From an uncultured Clostridia bacterium (GTDB lineage: Bacteria > Bacillota > Clostridia > TANB77 > CAG-508), in contig CALXVN010000001.1 of the NCBI GenBank assembly GCA_944392085.1, forward strand, positions 1 to 42,010: a stretch of DNA of 42,010 bases, read 5' to 3'. Below the pieces are notes generated by a model. It did not search any database. It worked only from the letters and a program-made list of their open reading frames with translations, and had not been told where the DNA came from. Of this stretch, positions 39 to 40,104 are shown one piece after another (within the stretch, counting starts at the first letter, position 1; each line of letters opens with the position of its first letter). Both the position numbers and the translations under genes were made by a program.

Positions 39-113
39 TGGGGTATCGCCAAGCGGTAAGGCATCGGACTCTGACTCCGACATTCCTGTGTTCGAATCAC
101 AGTACCCCAGCCA
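39..113 (+). tRNA. tRNA-Gln (anticodon CUG), CCA encoded
   Basis: Cloverleaf readable by eye: acceptor TGGGGTA/TACCCCA, anticodon stem TCGGA/TCCGA around 7-nt loop CTCTGAC (CUG), T arm CTGTG-TTCGAAT-CACAG, discriminator G then CCA. Layout matches bacterial tRNA-Gln. Confidence 0.93.
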
Positions 114-1725: not shown

Positions 1726-1907
1726 TTTTGTCGCGTTAGGGACAGGCATTTTCGAGCCATTAAAAAATAAATTTGATAAGATGAAAAAGATATGAATAAA
1801 AAGTACAAATTTTTCCATAATAAATTAATGAAATTAAATATTTTAGTTAAAATATGTTAAAAATAAGAAATATGTGGTATAATTCGAGTGTCCCTATCGC
1901 GACAAAA
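1726..1907. repeat. MITE-like unit: 19-bp terminal inverted repeats (TTTTGTCGCGTTAGGGACA ... TGTCCCTATCGCGACAAAA, 18/19) around a 144-bp AT-rich core that carries the apparent mgtA promoter
   Basis: Left arm 1726-1744, right arm 1889-1907. The arm sequence recurs at 17115-17182 and 20014-20047. Confidence 0.55.
1855..1883 (+). promoter_or_regulatory. Putative sigma-A promoter of mgtA (TGTTAA -17- TGgTATAAT)
   Basis: Extended -10 TGGTATAAT ends at 1883. The weak -35 TGTTAA is at 1855-1860. Confidence 0.45.
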
Positions 1908-1927: not shown

Positions 1928-4501
1928 ATGTACGATAAAGAATGTACAAGCAGTGTAGAAGAATTTATTAAGGAGAATAATTTTAATAAAAGAGGATTAA
2001 CAACAACTGAAGCAAGAAATAATTTGATAAAGTATGGTAAAAATGTGATGAAACAAAAGAAACCAAAACAATGGTACAATTATTTGTTTGAAAGTTTGTT
2101 TAGTACGTTTAATTTAATTTTATTAGGTATTGTTATTGTTTTATTTTATACAGATGTTATTTTATCTGAGCCACCAAGTTATGCAAATATTATAGTTATT
2201 TTAATTTTGATATTGGCAAGTACTATGCTTGAATTTTTTGAAGTGTATAGGTCTAATAAAGCAGCAGAAAAATTAAAAAATTTAGTTTCAGTTAAAACTA
2301 CTGTTATAAGAAATGGAAAAGTTACAAAGGTACCATCTTTTAATGTTACTATAGGAGATGTGGTAGTATTATCTGCAGGAGATTTAATACCAGCGGATTT
2401 AAGAATAATTGAAGCTAAGGATTTATATGTAGTGCAATCTTCTTTAACTGGTGAGAGTGATTCAGTAAAAAAAGTTGCTGAGTCTGAACAAAATGGAAAG
2501 ATAGAAGATATAACAGATTTAGATACAATTTGTTTTATGGGGACAAATGTAATGAGTGGGTCTGCTAAAGGAATTGTATTTAAAGTAGGTGATGACACAT
2601 ATTTTGGAAAAATTGCAGATAATATTACAGATGAAAAACCAAAAACTTCTTTCCAACAAGGAATAGAAAATGTTAGTAAATTGTTAATAAAATTTATGGC
2701 GGTTCTAATACCAATAACTTTTATAGCAAATGCTGCAAAGCATGGAACTATTACTGCTTTTACTTTTGCAGTTGCTATTGCTATAGGTATAACACCACTG
2801 CTATTGCCAGTAATACTTTCATCTAGTTTAGCAAAAGGTGCAACTAGAATGTCCAAGAAAAAAACTATTGTAAAAAAGTTAGACAGTATTCAAAGTTTTG
2901 GTGCAATGAATATTTTATGTACAGATAAAACAGGAACTCTTACAGAGGATAAAATTGTTCTTGAAAAATATTTGGACATAAAAGGAGAGGAAGATACAAG
3001 AGTATTAAAACATGCATTTTTAAATTCATATTTTCAAACAGGACTAAAGGGAAATATAGATGAAGCGGTTATTGCAAGAACAGCTAAGACTGAACTAAAG
3101 GGAATAGAAGAAAATTATGAAAAGATAGATGAGATACCATTTGATTTTTCAAGAAGAAGATTATCTGTGGTAGTATCAGATGGAAAAAAGAATCAATTAA
3201 TTACAAAGGGCGCAGTAGAAGAAATATTAAGTATTTGTACATTGGTTGACTATAAAGGTGAAGTTTCAGAAATAACAAAAGAAATAAAACAAAATATATT
3301 GAAAATAACAAAAGAATTAAACAAGGAAGGGCTAAGAGTTGTTGCAGTTTGTCAAAAAAATGACATAGAAGGAATAACAAGTTTTTCTGTTAAAGATGAA
3401 TGTAAAATGGTACTTATGGGATTTATAGGATTTTTAGATCCACCAAAAGAAAGTGCCAAAGATGCAATAGCAAGGTTAAATAAAGATGGAATAAGGGTTA
3501 TAGTTTTAACTGGAGATAATGAATACGTAACAAAAGCAATATGCGAGAAGGTAAATATAAATACAGATAAAATTATATTAGGAAGCAAAATAGAAAAATT
3601 ATCAGATACAGCATTAAAAAGACATTTAAAGAAAACTAATGTTTATGCAAAGCTTTCTCCTATACAAAAAGCAAGAATTGTAAGAGTGCTAAAAGAAGCA
3701 GGTAATGTAGTAGGCTATATGGGAGATGGAATTAATGATGCACCATCAATGCACAATGCAGAAGTTGGAATTTCAGTAGATACAGCTGTTGATATAACAA
3801 AGGAAACAGCAGACATAATACTTCTTGAAAAGGATTTAGATGTTTTAACAGATGGTGTAATTGAAGGTAGAAAGACATTTGGAAATCTTTTAAAATATAT
3901 AAAAATGGCTGTAAGCTTTAATTTTGGAGAAGTTTTATCTGTATTAATTGCAAGTGTGCTATTACCATTTTTCCCTATTACACCAATACAGTTACTAGTG
4001 CAAAGTTTAATATATGATATTGGCCAACTATCTATTCCATATGATAATGTAGATAAAGAATATCTAGAAAAGCCAAGGGTATGGAATATAAAAAGTTTAA
4101 AAAGGTTTATGCTATATATGGGACCTACAAGCTCAATATTTGATTTAATAGTATTTGCTTCATTATGGTTTGTTTTTGGTTTGAGAATGCCAGATGCTGC
4201 ATTATTTCAATCAATATGGTTTTCATATGGTGTTGTTTCAAATTTAGTAGGATTACACATAATAAGAACTTCTAAAACACCATTTATACAAAGTAATGCA
4301 TCAAAAGCAGTCTATGCTACTTCAATAATTTTAAGCATAGTTGCAATAGCAATACCATTTACTTTTATAGGAAGATATATAGGATTAACAGCAATACCAT
4401 TTAAATATTTTAGTGTAATTTTATGCGTGCCTATTTTATATTGTTTCTTAGCAAGTTTGGTAAAAAGAAGATATATTAAGAAATATGGCGAATGGGTATA
4501 G
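1928..4501 (+). CDS. mgtA: Mg2+-importing P-type ATPase (MgtA/MgtB type)
   Basis: TGES, phosphorylation motif CTDKTGTLT, MGDGINDAPS hinge, about 860 aa with 10 TM-like segments. ATG at 1928 has better spacing to GAAAGAAGG than ATG at 1919. Confidence 0.9.
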   Translation: MYDKECTSSVEEFIKENNFNKRGLTTTEARNNLIKYGKNVMKQKKPKQWYNYLFESLFSTFNLILLGIVIVLFYTDVILSEPPSYANIIVILILILASTMLEFFEVYRSNKAAEKLKNLVSVKTTVIRNGKVTKVPSFNVTIGDVVVLSAGDLIPADLRIIEAKDLYVVQSSLTGESDSVKKVAESEQNGKIEDITDLDTICFMGTNVMSGSAKGIVFKVGDDTYFGKIADNITDEKPKTSFQQGIENVSKLLIKFMAVLIPITFIANAAKHGTITAFTFAVAIAIGITPLLLPVILSSSLAKGATRMSKKKTIVKKLDSIQSFGAMNILCTDKTGTLTEDKIVLEKYLDIKGEEDTRVLKHAFLNSYFQTGLKGNIDEAVIARTAKTELKGIEENYEKIDEIPFDFSRRRLSVVVSDGKKNQLITKGAVEEILSICTLVDYKGEVSEITKEIKQNILKITKELNKEGLRVVAVCQKNDIEGITSFSVKDECKMVLMGFIGFLDPPKESAKDAIARLNKDGIRVIVLTGDNEYVTKAICEKVNINTDKIILGSKIEKLSDTALKRHLKKTNVYAKLSPIQKARIVRVLKEAGNVVGYMGDGINDAPSMHNAEVGISVDTAVDITKETADIILLEKDLDVLTDGVIEGRKTFGNLLKYIKMAVSFNFGEVLSVLIASVLLPFFPITPIQLLVQSLIYDIGQLSIPYDNVDKEYLEKPRVWNIKSLKRFMLYMGPTSSIFDLIVFASLWFVFGLRMPDAALFQSIWFSYGVVSNLVGLHIIRTSKTPFIQSNASKAVYATSIILSIVAIAIPFTFIGRYIGLTAIPFKYFSVILCVPILYCFLASLVKRRYIKKYGEWV

Positions 4502-8646: not shown

Positions 8647-9933
8647 TTATTTTTTTGGTTCTAATTTTGAGATTCCTCCCATATAAGGGCGAAGAACTTC
8701 AGGGATATTGATGCTTCCATCTTTATTATAGTTATTTTCTAAGAATGCGATAAGCATACGTGGTGGAGCAACAACAGTATTGTTTAAAGTATGTGCATAA
8801 TAATTTCCTTTTTCTCCTTTAATTCTGATTCCTAAACGTCTTGCTTGTGCATCCGTTAGGTTAGAGCAACTTCCAACTTCAAAGTATTTTTTCTGTCTTG
8901 GGCTCCATGCTTCTACATCACAGCTTTTTGCTTTTAAATCAGCCAAATCCCCACTACAACATTCTAAAGTACGAACTGGAATATCCATACTTCTAAATAG
9001 TTCTACTGTATATGACCATAATTTATCATACCATTTCCAACTATCTTCTGGTTCGCATACTACTATCATTTCTTGCTTTTCGAATTGATGAATACGATAT
9101 ACACCACGTTCTTCTATTCCATGAGCTCCTTTTTCTTTTCTGAAGCATGGAGAATATGATGTCATTGTATATGGCATATCTGCTTTTTGCAAGATTTGTC
9201 CTTTAAATTTTCCTATCATAGAATGTTCGCTAGTTCCTATTAAATATAAATCTTCGCCTTCTATCTTATACATCATAGCATCCATTTCTTCAAAACTCAT
9301 AACTCCTGTTACGACATTACTACGAATCATATATGGTGGGATGCAATAAGTAAAACCTTTATTTATCATGAAATCTCTAGCATAAGAAAGTATTGCAGAA
9401 TGAAGTCTTGCAACATCTCCCATTAAGTAATAGAATCCGTTTCCAGCAACTCTACGAGCAGAGTCTAAGTCTAAACCATTTAAACTTTCCATTATATCTG
9501 CATGGTAAGGTATTTCATAATCAGGAACAAATGGCTCACCAAATTTTTCTATTTCAACATTTTTACTATCATCTTCGCCAATTGGAACAGATTCGTGAAT
9601 TATATTTGGAATTTTCATCATTCTTTCTGTTATTGCAGATGCATATTCTGTTTCTAATTTTTCATTTTCTTCAAGTTCTTTATTTATTTCTTGAACTTGT
9701 GCCTTTATAGTTTCAGCTTCATTCTTTTTTCCATTTTTCATTAAGTTTCCAATTTCAGAGCTTAATGAATTTCTTTTCATTCTAAGTTCATCACCTTTTA
9801 ATTTTACATCTCTGTTTTTTTTGTCTAATTCTAAAACTTCATCAACTAAAACAAGTTTGTGATTTTGAAATTTTTTCTTAATGTTTTCTTTTACTAAATC
9901 TGGATTTTCTCTTAAAAATTTAATATCTATCAT
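8647..9933 (-). CDS. serS: Seryl-tRNA synthetase
   Basis: 428 aa. N-terminal coiled-coil arm, class II motifs (FRKE..., GVYRIHQFEKQE, NNTVVAPPRMLIAFLEN). Confidence 0.95.
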   Translation of the reverse strand: MIDIKFLRENPDLVKENIKKKFQNHKLVLVDEVLELDKKNRDVKLKGDELRMKRNSLSSEIGNLMKNGKKNEAETIKAQVQEINKELEENEKLETEYASAITERMMKIPNIIHESVPIGEDDSKNVEIEKFGEPFVPDYEIPYHADIMESLNGLDLDSARRVAGNGFYYLMGDVARLHSAILSYARDFMINKGFTYCIPPYMIRSNVVTGVMSFEEMDAMMYKIEGEDLYLIGTSEHSMIGKFKGQILQKADMPYTMTSYSPCFRKEKGAHGIEERGVYRIHQFEKQEMIVVCEPEDSWKWYDKLWSYTVELFRSMDIPVRTLECCSGDLADLKAKSCDVEAWSPRQKKYFEVGSCSNLTDAQARRLGIRIKGEKGNYYAHTLNNTVVAPPRMLIAFLENNYNKDGSINIPEVLRPYMGGISKLEPKK

Positions 9934-9944
9934 CCATATACCTC

Positions 9945-10195
9945 CTCTTCAAAGATGGTTTCAAATAAAACAAAACCCATATGCAAAAAGCATAAGGGCG
10001 AGATTTATTTCGCGGTACCACCTTAATTATTCAAAAATAAATTGAAAACTTTATAACGCTTATAACCTAGCATCAATCGGTCTTATTTTCATAAGAAGCT
10101 TTTAAAAGTAGATTCATAAAACATTTTAAGCTATTTACACCAACCATAGCCTCTCTAAATAAAATTAATTTTATTACTATTCTTTTATCAAACGC
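9945..10195 (-). promoter_or_regulatory. T-box leader of serS (candidate specifier UCU)
   Basis: Minus strand reads AGAGAG..GGTTGGTG (stem I elements), GAA-TCT-A (candidate specifier, complement of 10110-10112) and T-box AAGGTGGTACCGCG (complement of 10011-10024). The terminator is CCCTTATGC-TTTTT-GCATATGGG + TTTTGTTTT. Confidence 0.85.
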
Positions 10196-10211
10196 TTTTT
10201 AAAACAATAAT

Positions 10212-13771: not shown

Positions 13772-13940
13772 AGAAAGCATTACAAATATAGATTACCCTA
13801 TTAGCTTTGTTTACTAATATTACTATTAGGTTTTAACTAATAATTATGGCAGTAATCTAATGCCAAGAAACCATCCGCCGAATATTTCGATAAGTTTCTT
13901 CCTCGTCAACGTATAAGATAAATACGTCCAGGCGCTTAAA
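13772..13940 (-). promoter_or_regulatory. glmS ribozyme in the glmS 5' leader
   Basis: Minus strand reads AAGCGCCTGGAC ... GTTGACGAGGAAGAAACTTATCGAAATATTCGGCGGATGGTTTCTTGGC. That gives the A|GCGCC cleavage site and the conserved GACGAGG...UAUCGAA..UUCGGCGGAUG core. Confidence 0.88.
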
Positions 13941-14132
13941 ATTTATAGTATGCATTTGTAAAGCTTTTCTCTTATGCATAGTATATTACTATAAAATAAA
14001 AAATGTGTCAAATAGTATTGTAAAATATATAAATTTATGCTAAAATAATACTATTAAAAATAGCTTTGCTATTTTTTCCTTACTTATGACATAAAAGTTC
14101 ATAGGTTATATATCCATAAGGAGGTGAAGGTA

Positions 14133-16237: not shown

Positions 16238-17140
16238 ATGAACAAATACATAAAATATATAATAGTAGCAGTTATATTTTTAGTTATTATTGTAACATTA
16301 GTAATTTTAAATATAAATAAAAAAAATAAAGATAAAGAAAATGATGAAAAAATAAAAATAGTTACATCATTTTATCCAATGTATATTATAGCAGAAAATT
16401 TGCTAGAAGGCACAAACAATACCGAACTTGTTAATATGGCAGATGTGAATGTAGGTTGTTTGCATGATTATACATTAACAACAGAAGATATGAAAAAAGT
16501 AGAAAATGCAGATATTTTTATTGTAAACGGACTTGGAATGGAAAACTTTTTAGATAAAGTTATAAATTTAAATAGTAATATGCATATAATAGATTCAAGT
16601 ACAAATATACAAAACTTAATAAAAGATGAAGATGAAATTAATCCACATATTTGGACAAGTATAGACAATTATATTTTACAGGTTAAAAACATTTCAAAAG
16701 AATTGCAAAATAAAGATAACTTAAATGAAGAAATTTATAAGGAAAATGAAGAAAAATACGTAGAAAAATTAGAAAACTTAAAAGAAGAATATTTAGAAGC
16801 ATCAAAAGAATTAGAAGGGCAAAAAGCGATAATTTTAAATGAAGCTTTTGAATATTTTGCTCAAGAGTTAAAAATAGAAGCAACAACAATAAAAACAGAC
16901 CATGAGGAAAGTACATTATCAGCAGAAACATTAAAAAATATAATAGATAAAGTAAAAGAAGAAAATATTAAAATAATAATAATTGACAAAAACGATAATA
17001 AATCAAATGCAGAAACAATAGCAAATGAAACAGGAGCTACGATATATGAATTAAATTCCGGATTAACAGGAAGTTTAGAAAAAGATGCATATATAAAAGC
17101 TATAGAAGAAAATCTTTGTCGTTTTAGGGACAGGCCCTAA
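16238..17140 (+). CDS. Metal (Zn/Mn) ABC transporter substrate-binding protein, ZnuA/TroA type; the last 8 codons and the stop lie inside a repeat element
   Basis: N-terminal membrane anchor, cluster-9 SBP features (NPHIWTS, HDY). The tail ...EENLCRFRDRP* is encoded by 17114-17140. Confidence 0.82.
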   Translation: MNKYIKYIIVAVIFLVIIVTLVILNINKKNKDKENDEKIKIVTSFYPMYIIAENLLEGTNNTELVNMADVNVGCLHDYTLTTEDMKKVENADIFIVNGLGMENFLDKVINLNSNMHIIDSSTNIQNLIKDEDEINPHIWTSIDNYILQVKNISKELQNKDNLNEEIYKENEEKYVEKLENLKEEYLEASKELEGQKAIILNEAFEYFAQELKIEATTIKTDHEESTLSAETLKNIIDKVKEENIKIIIIDKNDNKSNAETIANETGATIYELNSGLTGSLEKDAYIKAIEENLCRFRDRP

Positions 17141-17182
17141 AACGACAAAAGTGTCGCTTTAAGGCCTGCCCCTAAAACGACA
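17115..17182. repeat. Two tandem hairpins of the GGGACAGG palindromic family, between znuA-like and znuC-like genes
   Basis: Hairpin 1 is TTTGTCGTTTTAGGG-ACAGG-CCCTAAAACGACAAA (15-bp perfect stem). Hairpin 2 is TGTCGCTTT-AAGGCCTGCCCCT-AAAACGACA. It ends 1 nt before the AGGAGG of the next gene. Confidence 0.85.
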
Positions 17183-20013: not shown

Positions 20014-20047
20014 TGTCGCGAAAAGGCCTGTCCCTAACGCGACAAAA
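20014..20047. repeat. GGGACAGG-family hairpin immediately 5' of the trpS RBS
   Basis: TGTCGCG-AAAAGGCCTGTCCCTAA-CGCGACA. GCCTGTCCCTAACGCGACAAA is the reverse complement of the left arm at 1726-1747. Confidence 0.85.
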
Positions 20048-24161: not shown

Positions 24162-24293
24162 GTCTTAACCTCCTTAAAACTTTTTAATGTTTGTAAGTTC
24201 TTTAGTATGGTATATAGTATTCTAATTTTAAAATTTTGTTACAAATTATACAACTTAGTTACTATTCAGTGTATAAAATAAATATATACAAAT

Positions 24294-24379
24294 ATATCCG
24301 TCGCATCTTAGTCGGCCATGTACATTTTCTTTCTCCATGTATTCGAAAGAAAAGTACATGGAGAAAGAAAATATTAATA
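24294..24379 (+). repeat. Class-B repeat, copy A: conserved 5' TCCGTCGCATCTTAGTCGG followed by a hairpin
   Basis: About 66 nt align with 38320-38386, with differences concentrated in compensating stem positions. An alternative 18-bp perfect stem pairs 24324-24341 with 24355-24372. Confidence 0.85.
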
Positions 24380-24541
24380 AGTACGGGAAATTATTACCAA
24401 GCCGAACAGTAACACAACTTACACAAAAATCAAAAAAATTTCTAAAAAACTATACAAAAAATATATATTAATGATATAATTCTATGGAGTAAAAAAATAA
24501 ATTTTCGAAAGAGCTTTAATAAGGAGAGGAACAAATAAATA

Positions 24542-38296: not shown

Positions 38297-38316
38297 GTTG
38301 AAATTATTAATCTTAT

Positions 38317-38398
38317 ATTTCCGTCGCATCTTAGTCGGAAATGCACATTTTCTTTCTCCAAGAATTCAAAAGAAAAGTGCATTTCCTGCGTGCGACTG
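38317..38398 (+). repeat. Class-B repeat, copy B
   Basis: TCCGTCGCATCTTAGTCGG at 38320-38338, then the hairpin GGAAATGCACATTTTCTTT ... AAAGAAAAGTGCATTTCC (38337-38386). Confidence 0.85.
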
Positions 38399-38453
38399 CT
38401 GTGTAATAATTTTTTAGTAACGATATTTTTGATAATAATAAGGAGGAAATTTG

Positions 38454-40104
38454 ATGAAGGTTACTTTTTTAGGAGCAACAAAAACGGTTACTGGATCTAA
38501 CTTTTTAGTGGAAGGAGCAGGCAAAAAGTTTTTGGTAGATTGCGGAATGTATCAAGGTTCTGCTTCTGATGAATTTGAAAATGAAGCTCCATTTTTATTT
38601 AATGTAAATGAAATAGATTTTGTATTACTTACACATGCACATATAGATCATTCAGGAAGAATTCCAAAATTATATAATGAAGGTTATAGAAACCAAGTAA
38701 TAGCTACTAAAGCAACGTGTGATTTATGTGCAATTATGCTTCCAGATAGTGGTCATATTCAAGAAATGGAAGTAGAGTGGAAGAATAAAAAGAGGGAAAG
38801 AAAAGGAGAAAAGCCACTTCCACCATTATATACAGCAGAGGATGCAGCAAAGTCTTTAGAAATCTTTAGACCAGTTCAATATAATGAAATAGTAGAAATA
38901 AGTGATAATATACAAGTTAGATTTAATGATGCAGGACACATGCTTCGGGTCTGCAATAATTGAAGTATGGGTTACTGAAAATGGTAAAAGAGAAAAAATT
39001 GTATTTACAGGGGATTTAGGAAATAACGATATTCCACTTTTATCACCTCCTACAATGATAAGTGATGCAGATTATTTAGTAATGGAGTCAACTTATGGAA
39101 ATAGACTTCATATAAGAAACGATGATAAAGCAAAGATGTTCCTAGATGTTGTATATGAAACACTTGAAAAAGGTGGAACAGTAGTAATACCATCATTTGC
39201 AGTAGGAAGAACTCAAGAAATATTATATGAATTAAATAGAATAAAAGAAGTTGAACATAGTGAAGAATTTTACAAAAAATATCAAAAATTAATGAGTGTA
39301 CCAGTATATGTTGATAGTCCTCTTGCAATATCTGCAACAGAAGTGTTTAAAGAAAATATGAATTTATTTAATGAAGAAACACAAGAAATTATAAATGAGG
39401 GGGATAATCCATTAGAATTTGATGGACTAAAATTTACAAGAACAGCAGATGAATCAAAGGAATTAAATGCAAGCGAGAAGTCTTCAATTATAATATCTGC
39501 AAGTGGTATGTGCGAAGTAGGTAGAATAAAACATCATTTAAAACATCATTTGTGGGATCCAAATAGTACAATTCTATTTGTTGGGTATCAAGCACCAGGT
39601 ACTCTAGGAAGAAAATTAGTAGATGGAGATAAAAAGGTAAAAATATTTGGTGAAGAAATTGCTGTAAATGCTAGAATTGAATATATAGAAGGATATTCTG
39701 GACATGCTGACCAAGAATGGCTTATGAACTTTGTGTATTCATTTACAAATCCACCAAAACATATCTTTTTAGTACATGGAGAAAAAGAAGGACAAATTGA
39801 GTTAAAGGGAAAATTAGAGGAAAGTACACAGATACCAGTAACAATTCCAGATTTTGGTGAAACTTATGAATTAAATGATGAATTACAAATGATAGGAAAG
39901 ACTAAAGATACAGTTAAAGAAAGATATTTAAGATTAGATGTATTAGAAAGAATGAATACATTAAAAGAAGAATTAGAAGATATGGCAAGTATTGTAAAAG
40001 AAGAATATTTGGATAAAAATGCAAGTGATGAAGATATTATAAGAATAAAAGAGAGATTAAAAGAGCTTGAACAACAAATTGTGAAAATTGTTGAAAACAA
40101 GTAA
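38454..40104 (+). CDS. MBL-fold beta-CASP hydrolase (RNA-metabolising type), interrupted: frame break at CTT-CGG (38943-38948)
   Basis: HxHxDH (THAHIDHSGR). ORF 1 ends ...RFNDAGHML-R-VCNN*. The +1 frame from 38947 reads GSAIIEVWVTENGK..., restoring the family AGHxLGSA motif. Confidence 0.85.

What the first reader, a model, noticed from the sequence alone, without database searches (positions are those of the whole stretch)
24294..24379. Class-B repeat pair (second copy at 38317-38398) shows compensatory base changes that preserve a hairpin
The copies share TCCGTCGCATCTTAGTCGG and then a hairpin. Copy A has CCATGTACATTTTCTTT...AAAGAAAAGTACATGG. Copy B has AAATGCACATTTTCTTT...AAAGAAAAGTGCATTT. 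The differences CC->AA and T->C on the 5' arm are matched by GG->TT and A->G on the 3' arm, giving three covarying pairs. The flanking single-stranded 5' segment and most of the loop (CTCCA...ATTC) are conserved. Covariation points to selection on structure. The element could be a small RNA or cis-regulatory element, or a REP-like or IS200/IS605-type hairpin recognised as DNA. Both copies are in the same orientation and lie 5' of + strand genes (mutL, the MBL hydrolase). Copy A additionally can form a mutually exclusive 18-bp perfect stem (24324-24341 with 24355-24372).
Basis: seen in the sequence. Interest (0 to 1): 0.6.

Follow-up and report, generated by a model that had tools for sequence, protein, structure and literature searches.

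The report
Hairpin core of a miniature transposon
The two look-alike sequences are copies of a previously undescribed small mobile DNA repeat of one genus of uncultured gut Clostridia, whose 83-base hairpin core keeps its shape through paired mutations; it is a new family of a known kind of selfish intergenic repeat and shows no sign of being an RNA gene.

Summary
Both copies exist as described, and the three compensating pairs are real. The pair belongs to a family of about 32 copies in this 1.29-Mb genome. The family has an 83-nt core: closing stem P1, an asymmetric internal loop, a long stem P2 and a 13-nt loop. The unpaired parts are conserved across species and the stems covary strongly (18 of 22 pairs). 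The family is a mobile DNA repeat. I found no evidence that it is an RNA gene or a gene-specific regulator. Copy A (24258-24413) is a complete 156-bp MITE with GTTAC... terminal inverted repeats and a perfect 8-bp target duplication, ACAACTTA. The same 164-169-bp MITE carries the core in sister species, again with 8-bp duplications. Copy B (38318-38400) is a bare core without inverted repeats or duplication, as are about 78% of copies. The element occurs in 12 of 25 genomes of the genus (1-39 copies where present) and is almost absent elsewhere. Orthologous sites are empty in close relatives. G:T and A:C mismatches are equal (27:27), so there is no RNA-strand signature. It matches no Rfam family. 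No transposase was identified, and the neighbouring RAYT gene is flanked by a different repeat. How bare cores spread is unresolved. RNA-seq could not be consulted.

The parts
24250..24257 (.). Left copy of the 8-bp target-site duplication ACAACTTA of copy A
   Evidence: Read directly. Identical to 24414-24421.
24258..24413 (+). Copy A: complete 156-bp MITE. It consists of a left TIR, a left arm, a class-B core with a rearranged 3' half, a right arm and a right TIR.
   Evidence: TIR pair found and flanks. The left arm matches the arm consensus of the family at E=3e-10.
24258..24269 (+). Left terminal inverted repeat GTTACTATTCAG
   Evidence: The consensus GTTACTGTTCAG is shared by MITE copies in G000, G001, G007, G016 and G046.
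24295..24375 (+). Class-B core of copy A. The 5' strand of P1, the internal loop, P2 and the loop are intact. The 3' strand of P1 is missing.
   Evidence: Covariance model R1 scores 67.1 bits, E=2e-13. In the alignment to the other copies the stretch CCTGCGTGCGACTAGTC is replaced by AGAAAGA.
24324..24372 (.). Perfect 18-bp palindrome (24324-24341 with 24355-24372) peculiar to copy A. The 3' arm now copies the 5' arm plus part of the loop, which looks like a template-switch 'palindrome perfection' event.
   Evidence: Sequence and fold. It is absent from the other copies.
24402..24413 (+). Right terminal inverted repeat CCGAACAGTAAC
24414..24421 (.). Right copy of the target-site duplication ACAACTTA
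38318..38400 (+). Copy B: complete 83-nt class-B core of subfamily 1, with no TIRs and no target duplication
   Evidence: R1 scores 96.3 bits, E=5e-21. Fold energy is -32.9 kcal/mol, z=-6.0. No arm similarity.
38323..38328 (+). P1 5' strand, GTCGCA
   Evidence: Pairs with 38391-38396, TGCGAC. P1 covaries in the family as GTCGC/GCGAC, GCCAC/GTGGC, GTTCC/GGAAC and GTCCC/GGGAC.
38329..38336 (+). Conserved 5' side of the internal loop (TCTTAGTC; family consensus CATCTTrn)
   Evidence: CATCTT is at least 90% conserved across species.
38337..38386 (+). P2 hairpin: stem 38337-38355 with 38369-38386, and 13-nt loop CTCCAAGAATTCA at 38356-38368
   Evidence: Fold. The loop consensus CTCCAwGtaTTC is conserved across species, and all stem pairs except three T:A pairs covary.
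38391..38396 (+). P1 3' strand, TGCGAC, preceded by the conserved CGTG
38297..38453 (+). Intergenic spacer that holds copy B. In most species of the genus the stop codon of the upstream gene lies within about 0-13 nt of the ribosome-binding site of the hydrolase gene.
   Evidence: Orthologous regions of 29 genomes.

Best explanation
The class-B repeat is the conserved hairpin core of a family of non-coding, non-autonomous mobile DNA elements (MITE- or REP-like intergenic repeats). The family is confined essentially to one genus of uncultured, small-genome gut Clostridia. The core is 83 nt long. It reads 5'-ARTCCGT, then P1 (5-6 bp), an asymmetric internal loop (CATCTTrn on the 5' side, nCGTG on the 3' side), P2 (about 18 bp), the loop CTCCAwGtaTTC, and ACTAyw-3'.

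Shown here. About a fifth of copies, copy A among them, sit in the middle of a 156-169-bp element bounded by GTTACTGTTCAG inverted repeats and flanked by an 8-bp target duplication. Copies are present or absent between close relatives, and their number varies from 0 to 39 per genome.

Inferred. That form moves by a cut-and-paste (DDE-type) transposase supplied in trans. The compensating stem changes reflect a requirement for the DNA hairpin itself. They could arise through selection during propagation, through quasi-palindrome template switching (copy A shows a fresh example), or both. They probably do not reflect selection on an RNA. Most copies, copy B included, are bare cores with sharp ends and no duplication. 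These are either survivors of decayed MITEs or a unit that spreads by a second mechanism. Options for that mechanism are a single-strand hairpin route or gene conversion onto existing hairpins, which the nested and replaced copies suggest. In operons the element is transcribed passively. Its 3:1 sense bias probably reflects orientation-dependent harm or benefit to the mRNA.
For: Family size and structure. There are 32 copies in G000. The RNAalifold consensus has 16 of 25 pairs with double changes. On 68 distinct copies from 11 other genomes of the genus, 18 of 22 pairs show double changes and 94.4% of cells are paired.

Mobility. The element is in 12 of 25 genomes of the genus, with 1-39 copies where present. 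It is in 0 of 16 genomes of other genera in the first sample. In the order-wide search it is in 5 of 201 genomes, counting G000 and a second genome of the same genus, and 4 of 32 genera, counting its own.

Empty sites. With 98-100% identical flanks, G007 lacks the C6 and C36:6389 copies of G000. G001 lacks the L176 and L164 copies of G016. The copy-B site and the spoIIIAA-AB junction are empty in most species and hold unrelated inserts in others.

TIRs and 8-bp duplications. Copy A has ACAACTTA, C32:5634-5799 has AAATAGTA and C36:1945-2112 has AACTTAAT. Nine of the 12 TIR-bounded G046 copies have 8-bp duplications, one with a mismatch. TIR pairs always lie 164-169 bp apart.

DNA-level signature. 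G:T mismatches number 27 and A:C mismatches 27. Both strands fold equally well.

Negative results for RNA. No Rfam family matches. There is no promoter or terminator in the element. Copies lie between unrelated housekeeping genes, for example frr-uppS-cdsA-rseP-polC and the spoIIIA operon.

Turnover. Copies are nested. Different subfamilies occupy the same orthologous locus in G000 and G007.
Against: No transposase with matching ends was found in any of the draft genomes. Seventy-one of 91 copies show no trace of MITE arms and no target duplication at any offset, so the TIR route does not explain most copies. The core, and especially its unpaired loops, is better conserved across species than the arms. 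That is unusual for a MITE interior and points to a constraint of its own. Intact cores outlasting both arms so often is hard to explain by neutral decay. Orientation is biased, 52 sense to 16 antisense between co-directional genes, which could mean an RNA-level role.
Confidence: 0.7

Rival explanations
1. The core is a functional cis-acting RNA module that has been spread by MITEs and then kept by the host. Candidate roles are an intercistronic mRNA stabiliser, a processing site, or a translation modulator whose CUCC loop can pair with Shine-Dalgarno sequences.
For: Covariation is strong and loop sequences are conserved across species. Between co-directional genes, 76% of copies are in the sense orientation (52:16, p=1e-5 against 0.5). 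In the 36 sense copies from sister genomes, the core typically ends 20-100 nt before the next start codon and begins 10-60 nt after the previous stop. Cores persist intact where the arms are gone. The loop contains CTCC, which is complementary to GGAG.
Against: G:T and A:C mismatches are equal, 27:27. The element is absent from half the species of the genus, including genomes that are 94-100% complete. Orthologous sites are empty in relatives, with the stop codon abutting the ribosome-binding site. The neighbouring genes have nothing in common. A quarter of copies are antisense. TIR-bearing copies, taken to be recent insertions, are already 11:1 sense, so the bias need not come from long-term retention. 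No Rfam relative exists.
Confidence: 0.2
2. Bare cores are mobilised as single-stranded DNA hairpins by an HUH tyrosine transposase, either the genome's RAYT-like protein or an IS200/IS605 TnpA. This is the way REPs, REPINs and PATEs move.
For: Bare cores have no target duplication and sharp ends. The hairpin has conserved unpaired nucleotides at its foot. A 268-aa Y1_Tnp gene with HUH and Tyr motifs lies just beyond the window, at C76:285-1091, and is syntenic in the genus. P1 of subfamily 1 (GTCGCA/TGCGAC) resembles the stem of that gene's own REP (GTCGCGA/TCGCGAC). Ten of 12 genomes with the element have a Y1 gene, against 6 of 13 without it.
Against: The RAYT-like gene is flanked by the class-A REP and not by class-B copies. 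The association with Y1 genes is weak (Fisher p=0.10). G006 and G017 have 14 and 8 copies but no Y1 hit. Subfamily 2 and the copies in other species have a different P1 (GTTCC). Inverted doublets are essentially absent. Copy A and its relatives have TIRs and 8-bp duplications, which HUH enzymes do not make.
Confidence: 0.15
3. The copies are genes for a family of small trans-acting RNAs.
For: The hairpin is stable and covaries.
Against: No promoter or terminator accompanies the element. At copy A the only good promoter-like site (24451-24480) lies downstream of the element. Copies sit inside operons, 10-60 nt behind stop codons. Distribution is patchy. There is no G:U preference.
Confidence: 0.03

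Closest known systems
MITEs of Firmicutes with structured interiors: bcr1 and group-A 'Bacillus cereus repeats', and RUP of Streptococcus pneumoniae (own knowledge; reviewed in Delihas 2011, PMC3184786, found)
   Same: Small (about 100-170 bp), non-coding, multi-copy, intergenic and AT-rich. They have terminal inverted repeats with a fixed-length target duplication, fold into stable hairpins, vary in copy number between close relatives, and are often co-transcribed with neighbouring genes.
   Different: No sequence similarity, and a different TIR and duplication length (8 bp here). Here the most conserved part is an asymmetric internal hairpin and not the ends. The same core occurs in at least three different arm 'shells' and, in most copies, with no shell at all. 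No parent insertion sequence is known.
REP/BIME/REPIN elements with RAYT transposases (Di Nocera et al. 2013, PMC3733652, read; Bertels & Rainey 2011 and Ton-Hoang 2012 from own knowledge)
   Same: Intergenic hairpin repeats without target duplication (as in the bare cores), with conserved unpaired nucleotides at the foot of the stem and compensating stem changes. Distribution between species is patchy. A genuine REP-RAYT system coexists in this genome.
   Different: REPs are 20-40 nt with 8-9-bp stems and a GTAG or CGTC tag, usually occur as inverted doublets, and flank their RAYT gene. Class B is 83 nt with two stems and a 13-nt loop, occurs as singletons, and does not flank the RAYT gene. 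A fifth of copies have TIRs and duplications.
Correia elements (NEMIS/CREE) of Neisseria and ERIC/YPAL of enterobacteria (own knowledge)
   Same: Elements of about 100-170 bp inserted close to genes and transcribed into hairpin-forming mRNA segments that can change mRNA stability. Filled and empty sites differ between strains.
   Different: Those are long foldbacks whose two halves pair with each other, Correia elements have a TA duplication, and their orientation is roughly random. Class B has a compact asymmetric core and a 3:1 sense bias.
Quasi-palindrome template-switch mutagenesis (Ripley 1982; Lovett and co-workers; own knowledge)
   Same: It explains how one arm of an imperfect DNA hairpin is corrected against the other, which gives 'compensatory' double changes without selection on RNA. 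The 18-bp perfect palindrome of copy A looks like such an event.
   Different: It is a mutational mechanism and not an element family. It does not explain the conservation of the unpaired loops.

Membership tests
MITE (miniature inverted-repeat transposable element) | Terminal inverted repeats at both ends | tested here: met
   Copy A has GTTACTATTCAG at 24258-24269 and CCGAACAGTAAC at 24402-24413. The same TIRs bound the core in G000 C32, C36 and C19 and in G001, G007, G016 and G046. The feature is not met for copy B or for 71 of 91 copies.
MITE (miniature inverted-repeat transposable element) | Direct target-site duplication of fixed length | tested here: met
   An 8-bp duplication is present at copy A (ACAACTTA), C32 (AAATAGTA), C36 (AACTTAAT) and C32:11059 (CTTTTTAT), and at 9 of 12 TIR-bounded G046 copies. 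Bare cores have no duplication at any offset, with k=3-8 tested.
MITE (miniature inverted-repeat transposable element) | Small, non-coding, multi-copy, with presence/absence polymorphism | tested here: met
   Elements are 156-169 bp. There are 32 copies in G000 and 0-39 in congeners. Empty sites are shown.
MITE (miniature inverted-repeat transposable element) | A parent insertion sequence with the same ends that encodes the transposase | tested here: inconclusive
   No TIR pair lies 0.4-4 kb apart in G000. All exact TIR pairs in 31 genomes are 164-169 bp apart. Lone TIRs lie next to ordinary genes such as RNase R. All but one of these genomes are fragmented drafts, in which insertion sequences are often lost.
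REP/REPIN-RAYT | Short (20-40 nt) imperfect palindrome with a GTAG or CGTC tag at one end | tested here: not met
   The core is 83 nt with two stems. Its 5' end is TCCGT(C/T), which is only a partial CGTC. The definition is taken from PMC3733652.
REP/REPIN-RAYT | Copies flank the RAYT gene | tested here: not met
   The RAYT-like gene at C76:285-1091 is flanked by inverted copies of TTGTCGCGATAGGGACAGGCCTTTTCGCGACA, the class-A REP. No class-B hit lies on C76.
REP/REPIN-RAYT | Frequent inverted doublets | tested here: not met
   There is only one tail-to-tail pair, at C27:9101-9183 and 9195-9277. The others are singletons.
IS200/IS605-derived elements (PATE) | No duplication, insertion 3' of a fixed tetra- or pentanucleotide, and a Y1 TnpA in the genome | tested here: inconclusive
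   Bare cores have no duplication. The 5' flank is only loosely T-W-W-A-A, with A at 87% at position -1. Only a RAYT-like Y1 gene is present in G000. Classical IS200-type hits (E about 1e-38) occur in G023, G024 and G041. G023 and G024 lack the element, and G041 was not searched with the core model.
Structured non-coding or cis-regulatory RNA | Match to a curated RNA family | tested here: not met
   Nothing reaches the gathering threshold at either copy. At E up to 10 there is only microRNA noise, best E=0.09.
Structured non-coding or cis-regulatory RNA | Covariation with tolerance of G:U but not A:C on the transcribed strand | tested here: not met
   Covariation is present, but G:T/T:G mismatches number 27 and A:C/C:A mismatches 27.
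Structured non-coding or cis-regulatory RNA | Conserved association with a gene or pathway across species | tested here: not met
   The neighbouring genes are unrelated. Orthologous sites are empty in most species.
Structured non-coding or cis-regulatory RNA | Evidence of transcription or processing | not testable with these tools
Integron attC site | R''/R' core sites (RYYYAAC ... GTTRRRY), and copies arrayed behind promoterless cassettes | tested here: not met
   Neither strand carries such core sites (sequence). The copy-rich contig C27 carries housekeeping genes (clpP, clpX, pyrH, frr, uppS, cdsA, polC, glyS) and not cassettes.

The most novel reading that the evidence does not exclude
The 83-nt core is an autonomous kind of 'hairpin module' with its own mode of spread, without inverted repeats or target duplication. 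It would target the tips of existing DNA hairpins. That would explain why it sits at the centre of several different TIR shells, inside other copies of itself, and why one subfamily replaces another at the same locus. The conserved loops would be read by a so far unidentified protein, and part of the copies may have been taken over by the host as intercistronic RNA elements.
Probability: 0.2. Interest if true: 0.6.

Novelty: new member of a known kind. Interest (0 to 1): 0.33.

Why it matters
The result settles what the flagged covariation means. Compensating changes in a repeated hairpin are not in themselves evidence for an RNA gene. Here they come with inverted repeats, target duplications, empty sites and symmetric mismatch spectra, all of which point to DNA-level constraints. 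It adds an undescribed repeat family to a poorly studied group of small-genome gut Clostridia. Their short operon junctions, between stop codon and ribosome-binding site, turn out to be invaded again and again by different miniature elements. The two-layer build, with one conserved asymmetric core in several shells or naked, together with the nested and replaced copies, gives a concrete system for asking how such modules move. It would also allow a test of whether they affect polycistronic mRNAs. For annotation, the covariance model built here would mask these sites and avoid false small-RNA calls.

Tried and rejected
Known RNA family. Rfam was scanned at gathering scores and at E up to 10. 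It returned nothing except microRNA noise.

Intrinsic terminator, or promoter plus small-RNA gene. No such signals lie in the element.

Integron-like cassette array on contig C27, which holds nine of the matches (seven full cores). The genes there are housekeeping genes and there are no attC core sites.

RAYT-mobilised REP. The RAYT-like gene has its own, different REP.

None of 144 occurrences has the apical loop inverted relative to the base.

Replication-strand orientation test by GC skew. In this genome skew follows gene strand so closely that the test cannot separate replication from transcription.

Target duplication next to the bare core. All offsets from -25 to +25 and k=3-8 were tested and gave no signal. 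Anchored arm-pairing analysis was also uninformative.

Parent insertion sequence. I searched for TIR pairs 0.4-4 kb apart in G000, scanned 31 genomes for exact TIRs and inspected lone TIRs. Only ordinary genes turned up.

Plasmid and phage records. blastn in distant mode found no match.

Viral contigs. The single pattern hit is a chance match across two divergent gene starts.

Literature. The core and TIR strings occur in no relevant paper.

RNA-seq.

Full report
**Observation**

The 19-mer TCCGTCGCATCTTAGTCGG occurs twice in the window, at 24297 and 38320, both on the + strand. None is expected by chance. The perfect 18-bp alternative stem of copy A (24324-24341 with 24355-24372) is exact and dominates its predicted fold. 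Both copies fold much better than shuffled sequence, with z = -5.2 and -6.0. Their reverse complements fold equally well, with z = -5.8 and -5.5.

**The family**

The window is contig C1 of a 1.29-Mb draft genome with 91 contigs, 27% G+C and 73% completeness. The 19-mer with up to four mismatches has 17 copies. A profile search finds about 33 and a covariance model finds 32.

Aligned, the copies define an 83-nt core:
- ARTCCGT at the 5' end;
- a 5-6-bp closing stem, P1;
- an asymmetric internal loop, with CATCTTrn on the 5' side and nCGTG on the 3' side;
- a stem P2 of about 18 bp;
- a 13-nt loop, CTCCAwGtaTTC;
- ACTAyw at the 3' end.

Two subfamilies coexist in this genome. One has P1 = GTCGC/GCGAC and the other has GTTCC/GGAAC or GTCCC/GGGAC.

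RNAalifold finds 25 pairs, 16 of them with changes on both sides. Sixty-eight distinct copies from 11 other genomes of the genus gave these figures:
- 94.4% of cells are paired, against 76.5% in shuffles.
- 18 of 22 pairs have double changes.
- 260 double-change cells are seen, against 57.5 in shuffles and 14-38 when the partners are slid.

In other species the stems are largely rewritten, for example ATATTTTGTATT...AATAAAAAATAT, while the unpaired segments stay the same. Copy B carries the complete core (38318-38400). Copy A lacks the 3' strand of P1. There, CCTGCGTGCGACTAGTC is replaced by AGAAAGA, which extends the hairpin into the loop.

**Not a known RNA**

Rfam at gathering thresholds reports only a T-box, a glmS ribozyme and a tRNA in the window. 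A permissive scan of copy B gives only microRNA noise. The element has no promoter-like or terminator-like signal. At copy A the one good promoter-like site (24451-24480) lies downstream of the element.

**Distribution**

The model finds the element in 12 of 25 genomes of the genus, with 1 to 39 copies where present. Several genomes of 94-100% completeness have none. It finds none in 16 genomes of other genera. In 201 genomes of the order it appears in five. These are G000 itself, one further genome of its genus (one weak match), one genome of another genus of the family with four copies, and single copies in two other families. An exact-pattern scan of one genome per prokaryotic species returns uncultured 'Clostridium sp.' and Clostridia MAG assemblies, some labelled as chicken or mouse-gut catalogue bins, plus chance hits. 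There is no match in plasmid or phage records. The one viral-contig pattern hit is a chance match across two gene starts. The sequences appear in no relevant paper.

**Insertion polymorphism**

The spacer that holds copy B is empty in most relatives. There the stop codon of the upstream gene lies within a few bases of the ribosome-binding site of the MBL-fold hydrolase gene. Other relatives carry unrelated small palindromic inserts at the same spot, and G017 carries a 28-nt remnant, GTTCCATCTTCCATTTGGAACTGCTTAG.

The spoIIIAA-spoIIIAB junction behaves the same way. Subfamily 1 is present in G000 and G007, and subfamily 2 in G001, G002 and G046. Thirteen species have a tight junction and the remaining species have other inserts.

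Between near-identical genomes the comparison is clean. G007 lacks the G000 copies at C6:13440 and C36:6389, with flanks 98-100% identical. G001 lacks the G016 copies L176 and L164.

**Copy A is a MITE**

Copy A is bounded by GTTACTATTCAG (24258-24269) and CCGAACAGTAAC (24402-24413). It is flanked by a perfect 8-bp direct repeat, ACAACTTA, at 24250-24257 and 24414-24421.

Further evidence for the same structure:
- It occurs at C32:5634-5799 (duplication AAATAGTA) and at C36:1945-2112 (AACTTAAT).
- It occurs at several loci in G001, G007 and G016.
- In G046, exact TIR pairs always lie 164-169 bp apart.
- In G046, nine of the 12 TIR-bounded copies examined have 8-bp duplications, one with a mismatch.

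Three different arm sequences connect the same TIRs to the same core. Other elements in G000 share the TIRs but carry other interiors or almost none (C11:14834-15015, C32:11059-11238, C17:2079-2149, C20:1396-1449). This is the signature of a transposase-mobilised MITE superfamily. I could not find the transposase. No long TIR pair exists in G000, and lone TIRs in other genomes lie next to ordinary genes. All but one of the genomes are fragmented drafts, so this is inconclusive.

**Most copies are bare cores**

Only 20 of 91 copies show any arm similarity. For the rest, copy B included, conservation starts and stops sharply at A|ARTCCGT ... ACTAyw|wAG. No direct repeat is found at any offset.

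Bare cores also occur nested in the apex of other cores (L166 and L179 in G016; L216-L219 in G006). At two loci G000 and G007 carry different subfamilies at the same orthologous position, while their other shared copies are 95-100% identical.

Either the cores are what survives of decayed MITEs, or they spread and replace one another by a second route. Survival of decayed MITEs would need something to protect the core. A second route could be a single-strand hairpin mechanism or gene conversion at hairpins. I cannot decide between these options.

**DNA or RNA?**

Among non-Watson-Crick cells in the stems, G:T/T:G mismatches number 27 and A:C/C:A mismatches number 27. A selected RNA would tolerate the first kind and not the second. 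Both strands fold equally well. Copy A shows a fresh event in which one arm was rewritten against the other arm plus loop, as in quasi-palindrome template switching. The apical loop is never found inverted (0 of 144 occurrences), so the element is a fixed, asymmetric unit.

Orientation between co-directional genes is 52 sense to 16 antisense. TIR-bearing copies, which I take to be recent insertions, are already 11 sense to 1 antisense. Because GC skew follows gene strand almost perfectly here, replication and transcription effects cannot be separated. The copies lie between unrelated housekeeping genes. In sister genomes they typically begin 10-60 nt after a stop codon and end 20-100 nt before the next start. 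They must therefore be transcribed passively within operons, and an effect on those mRNAs remains possible.

**The RAYT question**

A 268-aa Y1-transposase-like gene lies just past the window's end. Contig C76 overlaps the end of C1 by 77 nt, and the gene is syntenic in the genus. It is flanked by inverted copies of a different repeat, TTGTCGCGATAGGGACAGGCCTTTTCGCGACA. That repeat has about 60 copies, singly and as inverted doublets, including window positions near 1730, 1885, 17118, 17163 and 20025. Class B does not flank the gene. Its presence correlates only weakly with Y1 genes (10 of 12 against 6 of 13; p=0.10).

**Verdict**

The element is a new family of a known kind, a structured miniature mobile repeat. 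Copy A is an intact TIR-MITE and copy B is a bare core. I found no evidence for a small RNA or gene-specific regulator, though this is not excluded for part of the copies. What is unusual is the conserved asymmetric core that occurs in several shells, naked, nested and exchanged between loci. What moves the bare cores is unknown.

Noticed in passing
window 1730-1748, 1885-1903, 17118-17181, 20025-20043; C76:114-145 and 1095-1124: A second repeat family (class A), TTGTCGCGATAGGGACAGGCCTTTTCGCGACA, has about 60 copies in the genome, singly and as inverted doublets about 70 nt apart. It flanks a 268-aa RAYT-like Y1 transposase gene (C76:285-1091, upstream of radA) that lies directly after the window's end. 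Many copies abut ribosome-binding sites.
   Followed up: partly
window 38454-40104: The MBL-fold (beta-CASP type) hydrolase gene is read in two frames (38454-38963 and 38902-40104), whereas most relatives have one open frame of about 555 aa. Earlier notes on this genome attribute such breaks to a CGG-associated +1 reading (a four-base glycine codon). I did not test this.
   Followed up: no
G000 C11:14834-15015, C32:11059-11238, C2:7976-8242, C10:12988-13249, C17:2079-2149, C20:1396-1449: Other miniature elements share the GTTACnnTTCA... terminal inverted repeats but carry different interiors, or almost none (54 and 71 bp). C32:11059 has an 8-bp duplication, CTTTTTAT. This points to a MITE superfamily with exchangeable cargo.
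   Followed up: partly
G000 C20:740-870; G001, about 25 loci (query positions 2961-3080); G007 C37:2870-3000; G014 L152: Another abundant repeat of about 120 nt (…TTGGAAAAGGATTTCTGTTTTGGCTAGGCAAACGAGCGAGAAAACCGCAGG…) matches about 25 loci in G001 at 85-94% identity. In G007 it occupies the site where G000 has a class-B copy (C20:10633).
   Followed up: no
window 38297-38453 and orthologous sites; spoIIIAA-spoIIIAB junction (G000 C36:7657-7829): The few bases between a stop codon and the next ribosome-binding site inside operons have been invaded independently by at least four or five unrelated small palindromic elements in different species of the genus. These junctions look like hot or permissive spots.
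   Followed up: partly
G000 C29:2510-2592 vs G007 C7:49542-49624; G000 C27:16103-16185 vs G007 C3:42397-42479: At two orthologous loci the two closely related genomes carry cores of different subfamilies (GTCGC-type against GTTCC-type), although their other shared copies are 95-100% identical. This indicates replacement by conversion or re-insertion at the same site.
   Followed up: partly
G016 L166, L179; G006 L216-L219: Some copies are nested. A complete core with a few flanking bases replaces the apical 30 nt or so of another core, whose basal stem and P1 remain on both sides.
   Followed up: partly
G016 L176 vs G001 C16:25279-25517: A 131-bp insertion (core plus 24- and 25-nt arms, no GTTAC TIR) is flanked by TTATAA(T) on both sides.
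   Followed up: no
G000 C7:1-77 and several G007 contigs: A 75-nt stretch (CAACAAGGTTAAGTTTCCTTGGGCTGTGCATATTTGCGAAGCAAAATGCACATGTGGCGAAGCC…) recurs at 89-100% identity on at least six G007 contigs and at G000 contig ends. It is another repeat at which assemblies break.
   Followed up: no
window 39-110, 9991-10201 (-), 13789-13947 (-): A tRNA, a T-box leader and a glmS ribozyme were found by Rfam at gathering scores.
   Followed up: no
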